In this document: in pieces, positions 39,946 to 47,709 of the stretch | Position numbering within the stretch: the stretch's first letter is position 1 | Layout: every line of letters begins with the position of its first letter | Assembly: GCF_009914755.1 (NCBI RefSeq) | Contig: NC_060941.1 | Strand: one strand, 5' to 3' | Source: the human T2T-CHM13v2.0 reference genome, Homo sapiens | Length of the DNA stretch: 64,000 bases | Notes under the pieces: model-generated | Seen by the model: only the letters and a program-made list of their open reading frames with translations | Database searches by the model: none | Told to the model about the DNA's origin: nothing | Position numbers and translations under genes: made by a program

Positions 39946-41200
39946 TTTAATTAAGTGAAAAACAAAAAGCGCCCAGGGACATTGGGAAAGGGAGTTCCTA
40001 CCCCCACTTTCCAGGAAAGAAAACAGAGGCCCAAAGAGAGGAAGTGGATTGTGGGAAGAATTTCACTGCAGTAAGTGGTGAGGACTGACCTTGGCCAACC
40101 CCATATAGACCCCTTCCAGACCCAGGTGCCAGTGCAGACAGCCCAGCTGGGGTGTGGGGGACACAGGGTCAAGTGGCAAGGTGTCAGCAGCAGTCCCCAG
40201 AGATGGGCACCCCATGGGCACAAGTCCGCACTCACAGCCTCTACTCCAGGGCCCCATCTGGCACAGAGCTCCAAGCTGCTTAGGACAAAGGCATCCCTTA
40301 GAGGCTGGAGGCAGCAAACAGAACGTGTCCCTCTGCTGCTTCCTGGCCACTGCGGGGCCCTCACCACCACCTCAGCTCTCAGAACATCCTTCATTCTGCC
40401 CCCAGCATCTACTGAGCAATGACCAAGACCAAAGCTCCAAACCACAGACTGCCTGGGGCCTCGGCCTCCAGCTCTCCAACTGCAGAGGCAAGAGCAGAGT
40501 GTGAGGAGGGGGTGAGGAGTGGGCACCCCAATTGCCCTGGCCACTGTGGGAGCTTGGGCTCTAGCAGGCTGATCTCCCCCAGTCTGCACCCCACCCAGCA
40601 AGGACATGCAAGCCAAGCAGTTCCCACACCCCGTTCCTGGTGGCTGCCAGAAGCTTCCTTACAAGGCCCCAGCGCTGAGCTGGCTCAGCTGCAGGCGGGG
40701 GCCTGGGTGGGGCACAGCACACCTGGCTCAGCCAAGCCCAGACGCACCCTGCAAGTGAGGAATGCGGACGCCGCCCGGGCTGGCCCTGGGAAAGCTGCTG
40801 CCCTCGGCTCCTGCCCAGCCCTGACTCAGCCTAGGTGGGCCAGGGAAGCTGCAGCCTCAGCAGAACCAAGTCTCCCACCCCACCCTCCCCGCTGGCCTGC
40901 CTGGGATTGAACCAGGGGACAGGTCCTGGCAGGGGACTGAGAGTAGAGACAGCACCCCCTGGCCTCAGGACTTGGGGGAACAGCAGGGACTCTGTGGGAC
41001 CTGCCCTTCTCCTGCACTGTCTGGAGGGTGCCAGCACAGCTCTGTCCGGGGGGGCTGCCCACAGCACATTTTCCCAGATGCCTGAGCCTCAGTTTCCTCA
41101 TCCGTAAAAGGGGGCTAGTGACATTCCTGCCCACAGTGCAGGGCTGCAGTGGTGGAGGAGGTTCCCGGGAAGCATTTGAGAAGCAAACAGACCTCTTCCT

Positions 41201-41316
41201 AAGAAACAGAAGCGTCTGCCTAGCCCCATGAGGCCAGGTGATCCCGTGCTCCATGCAGAAGAAACAGAAGCGTCTGCCCAGCCCCGTGAGGCCGGGTGGT
41301 CCCGTGCTCCATGCAG
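41201..41316. repeat. 58-bp tandem duplication
   Basis: aagaaacagaagcgtctgcc...cccgtgctccatgcag at 41201 and 41259. Confidence 0.92.
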
Positions 41317-43291
41317 AGCAGGGTGACTCCATCATCCTCTGTCCCTGGCCCCAATACGGTTATTCCAAACTCCCCAGGACAAGGGCTGTGTCTCCCCCTC
41401 CGACTAGGCGGTCCCTGAAGGCTCGGGGCATGTCTCCCCTCAGACAAGAGGCTTCCCAGGGACAGAAACTCCATCCTCCTTGCTCCATCGCCCCACAGTC
41501 CCATGCCCTGCACTGCGGAAACCACAGGCCAGTGAAGGCCAGAAAAACTGCCCGTCCCCTCCTGGCGCCACCTTACCCCAGCCTCCCCAGGCCCTGACAT
41601 CCACCTCCTTGCCCACCCAGCCAGCCCCCAAACGCGACGCTGGAGTGCCTCACGGTGCCCACCCAGACCCTGGGGATCAGGAGGCAGAGCCCCCCAGGTC
41701 TGGCGCTGGTAGAATCTCCCATCCCTCCCTGCCTGCAAAGAAAGGGCCCACTGGCCTCCCTCCCTGAGCCCTCCCACAGCTGGGCTGGCCAGAGAGAACT
41801 TTCTCCCTCTGCTCTCTTTCTCTGCTGTAGTTCAAGCACAGACCCTCTCACCCCAGCCAGCCCTTCTCCACCTTCCAGGCGCACAGTCTTAGGGGTGGAG
41901 CAGAGGCTGAGGTTGGGGGCCTCACAGTCAAAGGTGCTGAGACAACAGCCCCGCTGCCCTGTGCTCACTCAGAAGCTCCTGGGGAACTGGAGTGGAGGGG
42001 AAGGGTCCCCAAGCCCACAGGTTCTGGCTGCCCCTGCCACGTCCCCTCCCCCAGCCAGGCTTCTCCCAACTGCGGCAGGGCGTGTGGGCTCAGGTTGGGG
42101 TGCAGCGTTGGCAGGACAAACAGTCTCCAGTGTTGGGTGTTTGCCTCGGTTACCAAGGAGGGAGGTGAGGGGCCTGGCTCCCTGCCATGTTTGGGCCCCG
42201 GGCTGAAGGTGTGGGTGGCAGGGAAGGTGGAGGATTTGAGGTGGGGAGGCTCACTTCCCGCTCCCAGGGCTCGAGGGCAGGGCAAGCCAGCTGGGACTGC
42301 CAGATCCCTGGGCGGATTCAGACCTGCATCGGCCCTGCCTTTCTGCTGGCTCTGGGAAACTCAGTCAGGCAGGAGGAGACGCTGGGGGCGGGGCAGCCTC
42401 CCTTGCTGCTCAAAGCAGGGCTGTGGGCTGGAGGCTGGGCCCCGGCAAGTCAGGTACTGCCGTGGGTGTCCCAACCTTCCGGGACTGACGGCACCACGGC
42501 CTAACTCAGGCCACCCGGGAGAGAGGCCTAGGAGCCCAGCTCTGGGCCCATGAATTTGGACAAGTCACCGCCCCTCTCTGGGCCCCAGTTTCCCCACCTA
42601 TATAGTGTCAGGAGCTGGCCTGTGTAGTCCCACAGGGGCCTCCTTTGTTTTGTCCTCCCTGTCATGAGCTGGGCAGGTGGATGCTGAGGGGTTGAGGAGT
42701 TGGGCACTGAGCCGGGAGTTGTGACCCGGCCTTGAAGCCCTGGCTGGAAGGGCTCAGTACACATCCAGGCGGCCCTACTGCCCTGTCTGAGGCTGGCATG
42801 CAGTGAGTGCCCGGCTGAGTGCAGGAGCCCAGGGCTGTGGTCAGGAATGGCCGGGCCCTTTCTCCCTCTCTCAGCAATGATGAGAGCCACAGCCCAAGGA
42901 ATCCCCTGCTGCCTCCTGCTCCCAGGTCTCCATCGCAGCCTCAGCATGACCGGCTCTGAGCAGGAAGTAGGGGAAGCAGGACAGAGGCTGGCCTGGCAGT
43001 CAGAGAGTGCACAGCCTGGCTCAGGAGGCTGGCAGGTCATCAGGGGCATAGAGCTGGCCCTCGTTGATGGGGCAGGGATGGCTTGGGGAGGGTGGAGACG
43101 CCGAGGCTTGAATTAGGGGGTGGGGGGTGCAGGTAGGGAAGAAAGGAAGAGGACTTGAGATTGTGACCAGGCAGTGCCACAAGGAACACAGGAGTGTGGG
43201 CCTTCCATGGGGAGGGAGGAAGGTGAGGCCAAAAGATGGCGGGGCAGGGGAAGGGACCACTTGCCTTGCAGCCCGGCCAGAGAGAGCGAGA

Positions 43292-44285
43292 ATGAGCAGT
43301 TCCCACACCATGAAGACCTTTGCCCTGGCCCTGCTGGTGGCCCTGCTGTGCACAGAGAGACCCCAAGGTCTATGCTGCCACCAGTGCTTGGTGGCCCCAG
43401 CCTGGCACAGGCATGCCTGCCCCGCTGCCACATGCCCCTTCCCTGACAGGGTCTGCGTCTCGGGATATGAGAGACACAGGGAGTCTGGGTCCCTGTGGCA
43501 TCTGGGAAAGTGAGAGTGGGGAACAGGCTCTGCCTCCTTTCCCTCCTGCCCCAAGAATGATACCATCATTTGGAATGTGGAGGTTCTGGACACCTCTATG
43601 AGTTCCAAGCTTTCTTGTTGCAAGAGAGGCCTCTGTAATGCGGGGGTCCTGGTGGCAGGCAGCACCTGGGCCCTTCCTTGGGACTCCTGCTCAGCCTGGG
43701 TCAGTTCCCCTCTGGGCCCTGCTGTGATGGCCTTTCCTGTCCCCCTTACCCCATGGCCCCCTCCTCTGTCCCCATGCATAGTGTCCTCCTCAGTTTGGGA
43801 CCACTTCGGCACTGACCCTCGGGAATTCCAGTGTGGTTTTGCAGCCGCGCGTTCAGGGGAAGGATGTGGTGGGGCAGAGGCGGGGGCTTCCCTGTCAGGG
43901 GACTCTGGCACCGGGCGGGTCCCTGCGGCAGACTTGGAATCCCTGCTTGGACTCATCCTGTTACCTGGGCCCAGGGCCTTCAAACCCACATTCCCTACAT
44001 CGCCACCTCCTTAAACCACCCGGCCTCAGAGCCAGGGGCCTTGCCATTTGCTGTTCTGAACCTGGAACCACAGGAAGAACACAGGCCAGGGGCAGGAGTC
44101 CAGGGTTCCGTCCTACCCAGCCATTAACTTAACACGGAGCCAGGGCCACACAACGCACCACTCCGGACCACCTCTGTTCAAGCAAGGAAGAAACCCAGGG
44201 CTCTGGAGCCCCTCAGGCCTCCCACACAGGGCGAGAGCTCCCCTGTCTCAAGGTCAATAAACACCCCTCTGCTTACTCAAAAAAA
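43292..44285 (+). pseudogene. Processed pseudogene of a Ly6/uPAR-family GPI-anchored protein (Ly6a/Sca-1- or LY6S-like)
   Basis: ATG at 43292: MSSSHTMKTFALALLVALLCTERPQG LCCHQC...ACPAATCPFPDRVCVS, then shifted-frame GKVRVGNRLCL, then PSCPKNDTIIWNVEVLDTSMSSKLSCCKRGLCNAGVLVAGSTWAL, then frameshifted GLLLSLG / SVPLWALL* (TGA 43725-43727). CCxxxLCN motif, no introns, AATAAA at 44256-44261, A7 at 44279-44285. Confidence 0.88.
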
Positions 44286-47200
44286 GACAGAGAGAGAGAG
44301 AGAGAGAGACAGCAGGGTCCAGTCTCTGAGGGCCTTGCGACCAGGCTGAGACATGGAATGGGGGCCAGTGAAGGGCGAAGGAAAGGACTGAACCCCAGCA
44401 GGAGCGACTCAGCACCCCACACACAGACACGGTCTCTGGGCCCTGACCACGGCTCCGGACACCCCCAGGAAATGCTGAGACCTAGATCTCTGCTTTGTGT
44501 GCTTTGGATAAGCGCATGAGCTAATGCCAGTCTGATCCAGACCTGCCCTCCGAAGCTGCAAGGTGGCAAAACAGAAGAGGCCTGCCCACACAGGTGCACC
44601 AGCCACCAGAGGACTGGGTGTGGGGCTGGGTGGCCAGCAGCTGAGGGTCCTAGGCAGGGCAGCAGGAGGGTCGGCCCTGGGGCAGGGAGAACCGAGGGCC
44701 CCTTCCCCCGCTACTGTGCCACTTGCCGCCTGCAAACAGGGAATCCCAGGAGGCCGGATCTTCTCGCTTTGCACCCAGGAAGCTAGAACTCTGGATTTGT
44801 ATGGGAAGCCTCCTGATGCTTCATATTTGGAAACTAATTCCAAAATAACACCCTGTGCAGGCCAAAGAAAGCAAGGCATTCAGCCAGCCTTGGAGCTCAT
44901 GTGGGCTGAAGGACAATCTCACTCAGGACCCCCTTTACAAAAAAGTAAAGTGAGGCCCAGGAGGGATGGGCTTGCAGCCAGTTAGGATCAAGTTGGGCCG
45001 AAACTCAGGCCCTGACTTTCCTGTGCTCTCCCCAACAAGGTTCCCACCCCCTCACCTGCTCCACCGTGCAGACCCCAGCCCAGCTGAAGAGCGCCCTCAC
45101 GAACCCCACACACACCCAGCAGGCTTTTGCTCTGCACACGCCTGGGTGCCGAGGTCTCCCATACCCTCTGACTGATCTGACCTGGCAGCTGCCTGAATTG
45201 TTTTCCCCATTTTACAGAAAAGGGAAATTGAGGCCAGAGAGGCAGGCCATTGCCCAGAGTCCTCCTCTGCCAAGTTCTAGACAGTGGGGAGGGGGCTGTG
45301 TGCCCGCTTACAGGTCTCTGTAACTCAGGTGGCAGGGAGGCCCCAACTTGCAGGGCAGGGAGGGGCTGGCAGGGATGAGGCAGGGCCAGGCCAGGCAGGC
45401 CCAGAGCCACTCAGCATGCAGGCCCAGTCCAGAGAAGCCAGGCCTCTGCCTCCCCCTCCCCAAGCCTGAAGAGGAACTCAGCAGGGACCCAGATGGCCTC
45501 AAGGCCGGGGATGAACCACAGACAAGAGGAGGTGCCACCCGGGCTAGAGAGAACCAGGGGAGGGCAGGGCACTGAGGACCACACGGTGGCCGTGCCCCAC
45601 ACCCACTCCCACCCAGGGACCCTTGAGTCCCACTTCTAGCCCTGGGCCACAGCAAGGGCATTGTAATGCTGGCCTTTTGTGTGCTTGGGGGTGGCGGTAG
45701 TAAGGAGAAATGCCCCCTCCAGGTGGTCAGTGCCCCAGGCCTCCTGGAGCACCCCAGAGATGGTGAGGTCGAACCCATGGGTTCAGCACCTGCCCTGTGC
45801 CAGGTCCCATGTCAGGGGGACACAAGAATTAATAGGACGTGACACAAGAATGAACAGGACCTGGTTCTGCCCCGGGTGGCTCACAGTCCAGGGGGAGAGG
45901 AGAGTGAATAAATAAAACTCAGTCGAGTTGAAATTGACCAGGGCCTTCACCGCAGACGGTGGGCAGGGGGAAGAGAGGCACCCTGGGGAGGGCTCCCAGC
46001 TGTGGAATAGGCATGGGACTCTTCCTGGAAGTTAGTTCTGGTCTTTTTCCATTTTTTATGCAGAAAAATGCACATATAATTGCTGTACAACTCAGTGAAT
46101 TTTCACAGACTGAACCCAACTGTGTAACCAGCACCCAGATCACAGCACCCAGATCACAAGGTTGTCACAGGGACACAGGGGAAAGGGCATTCCAGGAAAG
46201 GGCCACTGAGGAGCGAAGGCAGGGAGGTGGGAACTGCCCAGCCCCAGCAGGTACCCAGAGCCAGGAGGATCCAGCAGGCCTCTCTCCTCACCCAAAGAGG
46301 ATGGGTACTCAAACTCCAGACCTGCTCCAAGAAACATATCTGCAGCCCTAAAGCCCCCAACGCCCCCAACCCGCTGTCCTGTCCACCTTCTCCGCTCCAC
46401 AATCCAGCCTGCGCCTCGTACTGCACCAGAGAGATATGCTAACCACATGCAAAGGTATGCAAATGAACACAGACTCCCTGAGTCAACTTGGGCAGTAGCC
46501 AGAGTGAGTGAAGAACCAGACCTCCAAACAGGTGACTAGACCGGCCCCTGCCCCTGGCCCCATTCCTCCCACCAGCTCCTGAGCACCACAGCCCTGCACC
46601 CCCACACCCTCAACCCAAAGCTCTGACCACCTGCCCTTCCCTTCATCTATTCATTTAACTTTGATTCTCAGGGAGCCAAGGGCCAGTCCGCAAAGTGAGC
46701 ACCAGAGAGCTGAGCACCTGCCCACCAGGAGCTCACAGTGAGCAGGGAAGGGGAGGGGATGCAGACACGGCCACCAATTCCCAGGAAGAGCCTGCCTCAG
46801 GACAGAGCTTCCAAGCCTCAGAACAGCAGGTGCTGACTCAGTAGTGTGGGATCTGGCCCAACACTCTGCATTTCCCACCAGCTCCCAGCGGACGCCAAGG
46901 CTGCGGGTCCCAGGCCACACCCAGATTAGCCAGGAGTAAAGGAGGTGTGAGAAACATGGCCCTAGGAACACGAAGGGCTGGGGGACAGGCAGGGCAGGAG
47001 AGTGGCTAAGAGATGTGCCTGGATTCAGGTCCCAGCTCTGCCTCCTGCCCATCGTGGCCGTGTTGCTTCCCATCCCCCAGCCTCAGAGCCCTCAGCCCTA
47101 AGGTACCCCCTGTAACAACTGCCCCCACGTCACCAGGTCCCAGAGGCTTCAGTGAGACCAACTGGCCTAGGGCCCCTGTGGCACCTGACACCCTGCAAGC

Positions 47201-47709
47201 ACTTGGTAATCGGGAGATTATTTTTAAGTCAGGGTCGACTGGGAAGAGGCACAAGGGACGTGTTTGGGGTGAAGGGAATGTTCTCTGTCTTGATTATGGT
47301 GGTGGTCTCTTGGAAGATGTCAAGGACAGGGGATTCACCAGGAGGAGGGACTGCAAGAGCAGAGGCCTGCAGGTGTGGACATGCAGCCAGGGAGGACAGA
47401 TGACAGCTAACCTTCACTGAGTGCTTTCTACAAAGTGGAAGACAGCCAGGGGCCACAGTCGGAAGGACAGAGTCCCACCCCCCACCCCCCACCCCCACTC
47501 CAGGGGTGGCAGGAGGGTGGAGCCATGGAGCCTGGCTGTGAGCTCCTGGGTGGGCTGGCAACACCTGCCATGAATTGGGCACCTATTAGCAGTCAGGCAC
47601 TGGTGTGAGACTTTACCTAGTCAGAGCCCGCCTGTCTGTCTTGTGTGGCCCCAAGAGCTAAGAATGATTTTCACATTTTTAGGTAGTTCTTTTAAAAATC
47701 AAAAGAACA

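What the first reader, a model, noticed from the sequence alone, without database searches (positions are those of the whole stretch)
43292..44301. Hidden Ly6a/Sca-1 (LY6S)-like retrocopy beside the keratin cluster
Seen: two short ORFs (43127-43513 and 43577-44014) lie in the same frame and join into a Ly6/uPAR three-finger protein. It reads signal peptide MSSSHTMKTFALALLVALLCTERPQG, then LCCHQC..ACPAATCPFPDRVCVS; a -1 frame segment GKVRVGNRLCL (43504-43536); a 4-nt insertion (cttt) before PSCP; SCCKRGLCN; and a GPI-signal tail AGSTWAL/GLLLSLG/SVPLWALL* needing two 1-nt corrections. All ten LU cysteines are recoverable. There are no introns; AATAAA is at 44256, A7 at 44279-44285, and a possible low-complexity TSD is cagagagagcgaga (43278) / cagagagagagaga (44288). 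Known: Ly6 genes are multi-exon and cluster on human 8q24.3, and humans were long thought to lack a Ly6a/Sca-1 orthologue until LY6S. From memory, mouse Ly6a has MDTSHTTK..LLVALLCAERAQGLECYQC..CPSITCPYPDGVCV..NLCLPICP..GSTW, matching this copy motif by motif. Inference: a retrotransposed fossil of an ancestral Ly6a-subfamily mRNA, possibly from a paralogue since lost in humans, implying germline or early-embryo expression of the parent. I cannot confirm whether it is already annotated.
Basis: partly seen in the sequence, partly recalled or inferred. Interest (0 to 1): 0.9.

Follow-up and report, generated by a model that had tools for sequence, protein, structure and literature searches.

The report
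Old dead retrocopy of LY6S
This stretch beside the keratin genes is an old, broken, intron-less copy of the messenger RNA of LY6S, the only living human Ly6a/Sca-1-type gene; it is an ordinary processed pseudogene that RefSeq does not list.

Summary
Window 43257-44285 (+) is a processed pseudogene of the Ly6a-subfamily gene LY6S (chr8). The spliced LY6S cDNA aligns to window 43290-44279 as one block (67% identity, E 3e-80), crossing both coding exon junctions. The match ends 17 bases after an AATAAA, at an A7 run.

The reading path changes frame four times. It keeps the start codon, all ten LU cysteines, the CC...CN motif and the parental stop.

The proposed target-site duplication is not supported. 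Its 5' half is 5'UTR sequence shared with two sister retrocopies, and its 3' half is a (GA)n run.

A lost paralogue is not needed as the source. LY6S is the only genomic match across the whole 3'UTR (about 70% over 473-508 columns), though the trees cannot exclude a paralogue.

The copy is old: 3'UTR K2P to LY6S is 0.39, and in neither tree does it nest among living primates' LY6S.

Two further unannotated LY6S-lineage retrocopies exist, on chr20 (full length, older) and chr19 (5' fragment, younger).

The old copies keep features that human LY6S lacks: the sixth cysteine, the AATAAA, and an opposite orientation of a 29-base stretch of the first exon.

This is a new member of a known kind, of modest interest.

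The parts
43257..43291 (+). 5'UTR-derived part of the retrocopy, corresponding to the non-coding first exon of the source mRNA joined to the bases just before the ATG. The copy is 5'-truncated relative to the chr20 sister copy.
   Evidence: Homology with the chr20 copy starts at 43257. The GA-rich end is also shared with the chr19 copy. Window 43257-43286 matches the LY6S first exon 26 of 30, but on the opposite strand.
43292..43361 (+). Part derived from the signal-peptide exon, with the ATG retained at 43292.
   Evidence: Window 43290-43360 matches LY6S at chr8:144189382-144189312 with 86% identity over 71 bases. The exon limits of LY6S were fixed by splice-site enumeration that reproduces the LY6S protein P0001 with 1 mismatch. 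Junction placed from the alignment.
43362..43504 (+). Part derived from the middle coding exon (first finger, cysteines 1-5). It holds length differences against LY6S and the chr20 copy, and the first change of reading frame somewhere in 43463-43504. A TGA at 43511-43513 ends the starting frame.
   Evidence: The continuous HSP with the spliced cDNA crosses junction 134/135. Alignment; frames. Pfam UPAR_LY6 on 43292-43513 gives E 5e-4, 20.9 bits, below the cut-off of 24.8. BLASTP to colugo P0004 gives 35 of 57 identical, E 3e-14.
43505..43727 (+). Coding part derived from the last exon (cysteines 6-10, the CC...CN motif, a GPI-signal-like hydrophobic tail). There are three further frame changes, near 43537-43541, 43675-43681 and 43699-43701. 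The stop at 43725-43727 is homologous to the LY6S stop.
   Evidence: BLASTP of 43541-43675 to P0004 gives E 3e-12 and to LY6S E 3e-8. Pfam finds nothing on these short pieces alone.
43728..44278 (+). 3'UTR-derived part.
   Evidence: It aligns with the LY6S 3'UTR at 69.1% identity over 508 columns, K2P 0.414, or 70.2% over 473 columns and K2P 0.394 in the three-way alignment. It also aligns with the 3'UTR of the chr20 copy.
44256..44261 (+). AATAAA polyadenylation signal. The homologous hexamer reads AACAAA in LY6S today and AGTAAT in the chr20 copy.
44279..44285 (+). A7 run, a remnant of the poly(A) tail, starting 17 bases after the hexamer. Homology with LY6S genomic DNA stops here.
   Evidence: the HSP ends at 44279.
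44286..44309 (+). (GA)n run directly after the A-run. It is possibly a microsatellite seeded by the old tail (inference).
   Evidence: family D5.

Best explanation
Window 43257-44285 is a dead processed pseudogene. A spliced, polyadenylated mRNA of the LY6S lineage was reverse-transcribed and inserted into chr17q21 between KRT42P and EIF1. LY6S is the Ly6a/Sca-1-subfamily gene that survives on human 8q24.3. Insertion by the L1 machinery in the germline or early embryo is the established mechanism, inferred here rather than shown. The copy arrived without a promoter and has decayed neutrally since. It now has four frame changes and about 30% base divergence. The insertion is old. It predates the common ancestor of living primates and may be as old as the early placental radiations. 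It is one of at least three LY6S-lineage retrocopies of different ages in the human genome. Shown: homology, absence of introns, the 3' end at the polyA site, the breaks, and the lack of RefSeq annotation. Inferred: the L1 mechanism, neutral decay, the age, and that it has no present function.
For: - A genome-wide DNA search finds LY6S as the only multi-exon match. The signal-peptide exon matches at 86% and the last exon plus 3'UTR at 68% over 681 columns.
- The in-script spliced LY6S cDNA aligns as a single HSP, cDNA 63-978 to window 43290-44279, 67% identity, E 3e-80, across both coding junctions.
- The match ends at AATAAA plus 17 bases plus A7. The chr20 sister copy ends at the same site.
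- The copy carries ten LU cysteines and the CC...CN motif.
- UPAR_LY6 scores E 5e-4 on the N-terminal piece, against 8e-13 for intact LY6S.
- The colugo Ly6a-like protein P0004 has this locus as its best human hit, E 2.6e-22, ahead of chr20, chr19, the LY6S exons, LY6H and LY6L (9 matches listed).
- Age: 3'UTR K2P to LY6S is 0.39-0.41, and the three-taxon branch of the copy is 0.171 (bootstrap 5-95%: 0.123-0.220).
- In the same 184-187 coding columns the copy is twice as far from LY6S (0.368) as the chr19 copy is (0.179).
- The chr19 copy itself sits on the stem of the four anthropoid LY6S rows (96/92, starred).
- In neither of two ML trees of 25 rows does the copy nest within living primates' LY6S. 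It is sister to all six primate sequences (82/75). It lies in the basal polytomy outside a primate clade (85/78).
- No gene, repeat mask or functional element is annotated at 43000-44400.
- Testis expression of the parent comes from PMC9574348, passages.
Against: - No target-site duplication can be recognised. This is expected for an old insertion, but it leaves that hallmark unmet.
- The Pfam hit on the N-terminal piece is below the curated cut-off, and the C-terminal pieces give no Pfam hit alone.
- The tree placement is weak and depends on how the first break is read.
- AU tests reject none of three alternatives. A clade of the copy with the four anthropoid LY6S rows and the chr19 copy gives p 0.198. 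The copy with the chr20 copy gives p 0.351. A primate-plus-colugo clade without it gives p 0.419.
- The LY6S branch (0.224) is longer than the copy's branch (0.171) in the 3'UTR. This could mean a faster local rate on 8q24.3, or a source gene that had already split from LY6S.
- I could not look at other mammals' genomes, at RNA data, or at GENCODE.
Confidence: 0.9

Rival explanations
1. The copy is a retrocopy of a different Ly6a-subfamily paralogue that has since died or been lost in humans, not of the LY6S lineage itself.
For: - The human LY6E-LY6L interval does hold unannotated, degenerate Ly6-like relics beside LY6S, at chr8:144168809-144169497 and near 144172138-144172191, minus strand. 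So the cluster once had more members.
- In the 3'UTR the LY6S branch (0.224) is longer than the copy's (0.171).
- The trees do not fix the copy to the LY6S lineage, and the AU tests reject nothing.
Against: - The copy aligns with LY6S over the whole 3'UTR, about 70% over 473-508 columns.
- The chr8 relic shares only a 49-base block with it, and its protein pieces are only about 33-51% identical to the Ly6a-subfamily proteins P0001-P0022.
- The bootstrap ranges of the two branches overlap: 0.173-0.274 against 0.123-0.220.
- The LY6S paper argues for expansion in mouse rather than loss elsewhere (PMC9574348, passage).
Confidence: 0.12
2. The locus still does something. It could act as a non-coding RNA or regulatory element, or make a short secreted peptide from the 73-codon ORF 43292-43513 (signal peptide plus first finger).
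For: - The ATG and a 73-codon open frame with a signal-peptide-like start remain.
- H3K4me1 hESC enhancer elements are annotated about 2-3 kb away on each side.
Against: - No transcript, gene or functional element is annotated on the copy.
- Four frame changes break the LU domain.
- Divergence in the coding part (K2P 0.346) is close to that of the 3'UTR (0.414), as expected for neutral decay of the copy.
- No named protein in the word search shares words with the ORF. One candidate known from samples alone was left out unseen.
Confidence: 0.03
3. The match is a chance ORF pattern in GC-rich DNA, or a DNA-level segmental duplicate of LY6S rather than a retrocopy.
For: The region is GC-rich and full of short ORFs on both strands: 19 ORFs of 30 aa or more in 1.6 kb.
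Against: - E 3e-80 against the spliced cDNA, with both introns precisely absent (about 480 and 1345 bases in LY6S).
- Homology stops at the polyA site.
Confidence: 0.01

Closest known systems
Human LY6S (chr8:144184770-144189740, minus strand; protein P0001, 134 aa), the human Ly6a/Sca-1-subfamily gene described in PMC9574348
   Same: Same order of parts: 5'UTR, signal-peptide exon, two LU-domain exons, GPI-signal tail, stop codon and 3'UTR. The coding part is 72.7% identical over 403 columns and the 3'UTR about 70%. The tails are alike, as LY6S and the copy both end in LWALL.
   Different: - The copy has no introns, sits on another chromosome and has four frame changes.
- It keeps the sixth consensus cysteine, where human LY6S has the serine that gave it its name (PMC9574348 passages).
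- It keeps AATAAA where LY6S reads AACAAA. The annotated LY6S gene runs about 1.9 kb further on.
- Its 5'UTR matches the LY6S first exon on the opposite strand.
Sister retrocopies: chr20:43190603-43193775 (minus strand, in a CHD6 intron) and chr19:48864844-48865037 (minus strand, between PGLYRP1 and IGFL4)
   Same: Both are intron-less LY6S-lineage copies that RefSeq does not annotate. The chr20 copy runs from the 5'UTR to the same polyA site.
   Different: - The chr20 copy is split by an insertion of about 2.25 kb and is the most diverged. Its 3'UTR K2P is 0.487 to LY6S and 0.434 to the chr17 copy.
- The chr19 copy is only the first 185 bases, but it is much closer to LY6S: 84.9% identity, K2P 0.179.
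- The chr19 copy sits on the stem of the four anthropoid LY6S rows in both trees: 96/92 and 96/91, both starred.
Processed pseudogenes in general (L1-mediated retrocopies of cellular mRNAs)
   Same: Spliced, ends in a poly(A) remnant after the polyA signal, unlinked to the parent, lacks the parental promoter, disabled.
   Different: No recognisable target-site duplication. The tail is reduced to A7 followed by a (GA)n run.
Rodent Ly6a-subfamily proteins ('lymphocyte antigen 6A-2/6E-1' of Nannospalax, Peromyscus and Acomys; P0005, P0008, P0009, P0011, P0012)
   Same: Same signal-peptide pattern, cysteine spacing, CLPxCP and CC...LCN motifs and GS(T/A)W omega-site region.
   Different: They are intact genes in the Ly6 cluster.

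Membership tests
Processed pseudogene (retrocopy) | Collinear with the spliced mRNA of a multi-exon parent, introns precisely absent | tested here: met
   Single HSP with the spliced LY6S cDNA crosses junctions 134/135 and 251/252, E 3e-80. The LY6S exons were fixed.
Processed pseudogene (retrocopy) | 3' end at the parent's polyadenylation site, followed by an A-run | tested here: met
   AATAAA at 44256 and A7 at 44279-44285. Homology with LY6S genomic DNA ends at 44279. The chr20 copy ends at the same site.
Processed pseudogene (retrocopy) | Flanking target-site duplications | tested here: not met
The other direct repeats found are short, not adjacent to the ends and not collinear. Loss of the duplications is usual at this age.
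Processed pseudogene (retrocopy) | Unlinked to the parent, with no parental promoter or upstream homology | tested here: met
   The copy is on chr17 and the parent on chr8. Homology begins at 43257, inside the transcribed first exon.
Processed pseudogene (retrocopy) | Disabled reading frame | tested here: met
   Four frame changes, and a TGA at 43511 in the starting frame.
Ly6/uPAR (LU, three-finger) domain | Match to the Pfam UPAR_LY6 profile above the curated cut-off | tested here: inconclusive
   The N-terminal piece scores E 5e-4, 20.9 bits, against a cut-off of 24.8. The C-terminal pieces give no hit. Intact LY6S scores 49.1 bits. Only pieces were scanned. I did not scan an X-joined whole.
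Ly6/uPAR (LU, three-finger) domain | Ten consensus cysteines, including the CC doublet and the C-terminal CN | tested here: met
   All ten, plus one extra, are present along the frame path. They are read across breaks, so this shows descent, not a foldable protein.
Ly6/uPAR (LU, three-finger) domain | N-terminal signal peptide and C-terminal GPI-anchor signal | not tested
   Both regions are similar to those of LY6S and other family members. No signal-peptide or GPI predictor was run.
Ly6a subfamily / LY6S lineage | Closest relative in the genome is LY6S, including non-coding parts | tested here: met
   3'UTR about 70% identical over 473-508 columns.
Ly6a subfamily / LY6S lineage | Branches from the LY6S orthologue stem in a tree | tested here: inconclusive
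   Sister to the six primate LY6S sequences (82/75). In the basal polytomy. AU p values 0.198, 0.351 and 0.419.

The most novel reading that the evidence does not exclude
The three unannotated retrocopies (chr20, chr17, chr19) form a dated fossil series of the LY6S lineage. They would show that this interferon-inducible immune gene was transcribed in the germline or early embryo at three separate times. They would also record ancestral states that the living human gene has since lost: the sixth LU cysteine, the original AATAAA polyA site, and the opposite orientation of a 29-base core of the non-coding first exon. That core sits between 26-base inverted repeats, which would imply a micro-inversion at the LY6S 5' end after the old copies were made. 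A bolder form is that the chr17 copy descends from a now-dead paralogue whose relics lie beside LY6S.
Probability: 0.45. Interest if true: 0.4.

Novelty: new member of a known kind. Interest (0 to 1): 0.3.

Why it matters
LY6S was recognised only in 2022 as the long-missing human counterpart of mouse Sca-1/Ly6a, and it is odd in having nine rather than ten cysteines. Old retrocopies are free-standing snapshots of the ancestral mRNA. They help in three ways:

- They help to order the changes that made human LY6S unusual. The serine at cysteine 6 is absent from the orang-utan protein model (P0002) and from the two copies that cover that position, chr17 and chr20.
- They show that the original polyA site was abandoned.
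- They hint at a small inversion in the first exon.

They also matter in practice. Three unannotated LY6S-like sequences can attract mis-mapped reads, primers or probes meant for a gene that is weakly expressed and overlapped by an antisense transcript. Otherwise this is an ordinary processed pseudogene with no sign of function.

Tried and rejected
- **Word search with the window ORF.** The search with the 128-aa window ORF, region 56-128, found nothing. The search with the LY6S middle exon found only LY6S. Only an alignment of LY6S with the copies' pieces as they stand reached other mammals: 22 proteins at E <= 0.01 among 366 candidates, with 5370 sample-only candidates left out unseen. No Mus protein was among them.
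- **Pfam on the C-terminal pieces.** No hits. One Pfam call failed on a wrong frame.
- **Target-site duplication.** Rejected.
- **Other candidate copies.** The weak protein hits on chr22, chr4, chr2, chr5 and chr1 were six loci (L010, L011, L013-L016). They gave 0 hits at E <= 0.1 with all 22 proteins. A seventh weak hit, chr17:82297206, had no locus and was not re-tested.
- **Alternative reading of the first frame break.** A reading from 43471 got no BLASTP alignment to P0004. Using it moved the copy from 'sister of primates' to the basal polytomy, so the tree position is fragile.
- **AU tests.** They rejected none of three alternatives.
- **Sense alignment of the copies' 5' ends with the LY6S first exon.** Poor: 13-15 of 29 for the core. 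The antisense match is 25 of 29 for the chr20 copy, with 0 of 2000 shuffles as good. It is only 16 of 29 for the 5'-truncated chr17 copy (189 of 2000 shuffles) and 14 of 29 for chr19 (549 of 2000).
- **Literature.** Searches for 'LY6S' (30 papers, 20 listed), for 'ly6' + 'processed pseudogene' + 'ly6a' (1 irrelevant abstract book), for 'ly6 upar family / pseudogene / 8q24' (nothing useful in the 10 listed) and for 'LY6S' + 'pseudogene' (5 papers, 4 listed) found no mention of a chr17, chr19 or chr20 copy.
- **Papers read.** In PMC9574348 the words pseudogene, chromosome 17, chr17, processed and intronless occur 0 times. PMC10421932 (passages) catalogues pseudogenes and orphan exons inside the chr8 cluster only. 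Its figures and supplements, which I could not see, may already show the chr8 relics.
- **Not possible here.** Other mammals' genomes, GENCODE or retrogene catalogues, and RNA data. Closed regions of the reference could hide further copies.
- **Absolute dating.** The ages rest on human-lineage neutral branch lengths that I recall rather than computed, so I give only a broad bracket.


Full report
**What is there**

Two ORFs, 43127-43513 and 43577-44014, share a frame.

A three-frame translation shows the reading path:
- an ATG at 43292, followed by a signal-peptide-like stretch and the first LU finger;
- a TGA at 43511 in that frame;
- the GKVRVGNRLCL stretch in another frame from 43504;
- a return to the first frame at 43541, running through PSCPKND...SCCKRGLCN...GSTWAL;
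- two more frame changes before a tail that ends LWALL-stop at 43725-43727.

AATAAA sits at 44256. An A7 run is at 44279-44285, followed by a (GA)n run.

**What it matches**

A DNA search of the whole reference with window 43270-44290 found six places:
- the window itself;
- two exons of LY6S on chr8, the last exon plus 3'UTR at 68% and the signal-peptide exon at 86%;
- one place on chr19;
- two places on chr20.

I located the three coding exons of LY6S on locus L017. I enumerated GT/AG sites until the spliced translation equalled the public LY6S protein P0001; one solution was found, with one mismatch.

The LY6S cDNA, spliced in a script, aligns to window 43290-44279 as one HSP of 999 columns, at 67% identity and E 3e-80. 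It runs straight across both coding junctions. The LY6S introns missing from the window are about 480 and 1345 bases long.

Homology with LY6S genomic DNA ends at 44279, exactly where the A-run starts, 17 bases after the hexamer.

**Protein-level checks, piece by piece**

- The N-terminal piece hits Pfam UPAR_LY6 at E 5e-4, 20.9 bits, below the 24.8 cut-off.
- The short C-terminal pieces hit nothing.
- Intact LY6S scores 49.1 bits.
- BLASTP of the pieces to a colugo Ly6a-like protein (P0004) gives 35 of 57 identities at E 3e-14 and 25 of 44 at E 3e-12.
- Used against the whole human genome, that colugo protein has this locus as its best hit, E 2.6e-22. Next come the chr20 and chr19 copies, then the exons of LY6S, LY6H and LY6L (9 matches).
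- Read with X at each break, the copy carries all ten LU cysteines plus one extra.

**Limits of the element and the proposed TSD**

The copy begins at about 43257, not at the ATG. From there to the ATG it is homologous to the 5' end of the chr20 copy. Its GA-rich last 15 bases or so are also shared with the chr19 copy.

It pairs this GA-rich 5'UTR, running into the ATG, with the (GA)n run after the tail. The 5' half belongs to the transcript, so it is not a duplication of the target. No other direct repeat sits at both ends.

RefSeq annotates no gene, repeat or functional element at 43000-44400. It lists no LY6 pseudogene at the chr17, chr19 or chr20 sites or in the chr8 LY6E-LY6L interval.

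**Source gene**

The 3'UTR of the copy aligns with that of LY6S over its full length:
- 69.1% identity over 508 columns, K2P 0.414;
- 70.2% over 473 columns, K2P 0.394, in the three-way alignment.

I also searched the 60 kb between LY6E and LY6L with all 22 proteins and with the copy. Besides LY6S there are degenerate, unannotated Ly6-like relics at chr8:144168809-144169497 and near 144172138-144172191, minus strand. They share only a 49-base block with the copy, and their protein pieces are far less similar.

So the living LY6S lineage is the simplest source. A dead paralogue is not needed, but the data cannot exclude one.

**Age**

In the 184-187 columns of the first two coding exons, K2P to LY6S is 0.368 for the chr17 copy, 0.179 for the chr19 copy and 0.433 for the chr20 copy.

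In the 3'UTR the pairwise distances are 0.394 for LY6S-chr17, 0.487 for LY6S-chr20 and 0.434 for chr17-chr20. The three-taxon branches are 0.224 for LY6S, 0.171 for chr17 (5-95%: 0.123-0.220) and 0.264 for chr20.

LY6S and the chr17 copy are the closest pair, so the chr20 copy is the oldest and the chr17 copy somewhat younger.

A maximum-likelihood tree of 25 rows used 22 named Ly6a-subfamily proteins from primates, colugo, rodents, rabbit and aardvark, plus the three copies with X at breaks. It gives:
- the chr19 copy on the stem of the four anthropoid LY6S rows (96/92, starred);
- the chr17 copy as sister to all six primate LY6S sequences (82/75, not starred);
- the chr20 copy unresolved near the base.

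A second tree used another reading of the first break and added the 3' piece of the chr20 copy. It put the chr17 copy in the basal polytomy, outside a primate clade (85/78). That alternative reading got no BLASTP support of its own.

AU tests rejected none of three alternatives, with p 0.198, 0.351 and 0.419.

Taken together, the insertion predates the common ancestor of living primates. By neutral branch lengths that I recall, not compute, a branch of about 0.17 substitutions per site would fit the early placental radiations. Only the orthologous sites in other mammals can settle the date.

**Mechanism**

The anatomy is that of an L1-mediated processed pseudogene: spliced, a tail after the polyA signal, unlinked to the parent, and no promoter. 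Reverse transcription in the germline or early embryo is inferred from what is known of such copies.

The LY6S paper reports testis as the second-highest tissue at 40 PCR cycles (PMC9574348, passages). Three copies of different ages suggest that such expression recurred. After insertion the copy decayed. Its coding K2P (0.346) is close to its 3'UTR K2P (0.414).

**What the fossils keep**

- The chr17 and chr20 copies, and the orang-utan model P0002, have a cysteine at consensus position six. Human LY6S has the serine that named it (PMC9574348 passages).
- The chr17 copy keeps AATAAA where LY6S reads AACAAA. The annotated LY6S gene runs about 1.9 kb further on.
- The LY6S first exon holds 26-base inverted-repeat arms (81% complementary) around a 29-base core.
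- That core matches the 5' end of the chr20 copy 25 of 29 in antisense only, with 0 of 2000 shuffles as good, against 13 of 29 in sense.
- The chr17 copy is 5'-truncated and carries only part of that core. Window 43257-43286 matches the LY6S first exon 26 of 30 on the opposite strand, but that stretch runs into one of the near-palindromic arms. Over the full 29-base core it scores only 16 of 29 antisense against 14 of 29 sense, and 189 of 2000 shuffles do as well. The chr19 copy gives no signal.
- A small inversion between the repeat arms after the old copies were made would explain this. The case rests mainly on the chr20 copy. I built no ancestral version to test it.

**Verdict**

The retrocopy interpretation is right. 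The TSD is wrong, and the lost-paralogue idea is unnecessary but still open.

It is a new member of a known kind. Interest is modest, mainly as one of three snapshots of the ancestry of a recently recognised human immune gene.

Noticed in passing
L019 1199-1500 and L026 (chr20:43190603-43193775, minus strand, inside a CHD6 intron): A second, older, full-length LY6S-lineage processed pseudogene, not annotated in RefSeq. It runs from the 5'UTR to the same polyA site, which here reads AGTAAT and is followed by an A6 remnant. An insertion of about 2.25 kb splits it between chr20:43193513 and 43191265. I did not identify the inserted element.
   Followed up: partly
L018 1045-1238 (chr19:48864844-48865037, minus strand, between PGLYRP1 and IGFL4): A third, younger LY6S-lineage retrocopy fragment. 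It has the 5'UTR end, the signal-peptide exon and the middle exon, spliced, and is 84.9% identical to the LY6S cDNA. It stops near the junction with the last exon, and nothing more was found in 9 kb downstream. It sits on the stem of the four anthropoid LY6S rows in both trees: 96/92 and 96/91, both starred.
   Followed up: partly
L020 (chr8:144168809-144169497, minus strand, and about 144172138-144172191, minus strand): Degenerate Ly6-like exon relics lie between LY6E and LY6S, and RefSeq does not annotate them. The first has a middle-exon-like piece that has lost cysteines and a last-exon-like piece that ends FLWALL. This suggests the human LY6E-LY6L interval once held more than one gene of this kind. 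The LY6S paper calls LY6S solitary. A 2023 paper on the cluster (PMC10421932) may show such relics in figures I could not see.
   Followed up: partly
L017 5676-5756 (chr8:144189675-144189755, LY6S first exon and annotated start): A 26-base inverted repeat (81% complementary) flanks a 29-base core. The core matches the 5'UTR of the chr20 retrocopy 25 of 29 only in the orientation opposite to the LY6S mRNA; the truncated chr17 copy gives weak support. This hints at a micro-inversion in the LY6S first exon after those copies were made. The antisense gene LY6S-AS1 (C8orf31) overlaps here.
   Followed up: partly
L017 about 2655-2665 (chr8, LY6S 3'UTR) against window 44256-44261: The polyA hexamer used by the old retrocopies reads AACAAA in present-day LY6S. 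The annotated gene extends about 1.9 kb further, so the polyA site seems to have shifted.
   Followed up: no
P0002 (orang-utan 'lymphocyte antigen 6S-like', 171 aa): This protein model keeps the sixth cysteine (KLCLPSC) where human LY6S has serine, so the loss appears to postdate the human-orang split. Its N-terminal 43 residues are the non-coding first exon of LY6S read as coding, which is probably a gene-model artefact.
   Followed up: no
window 39996-41391 and 46731-47230: RefSeq lists H3K4me1 hESC enhancer elements on both sides of the copy, but none on it.
   Followed up: no
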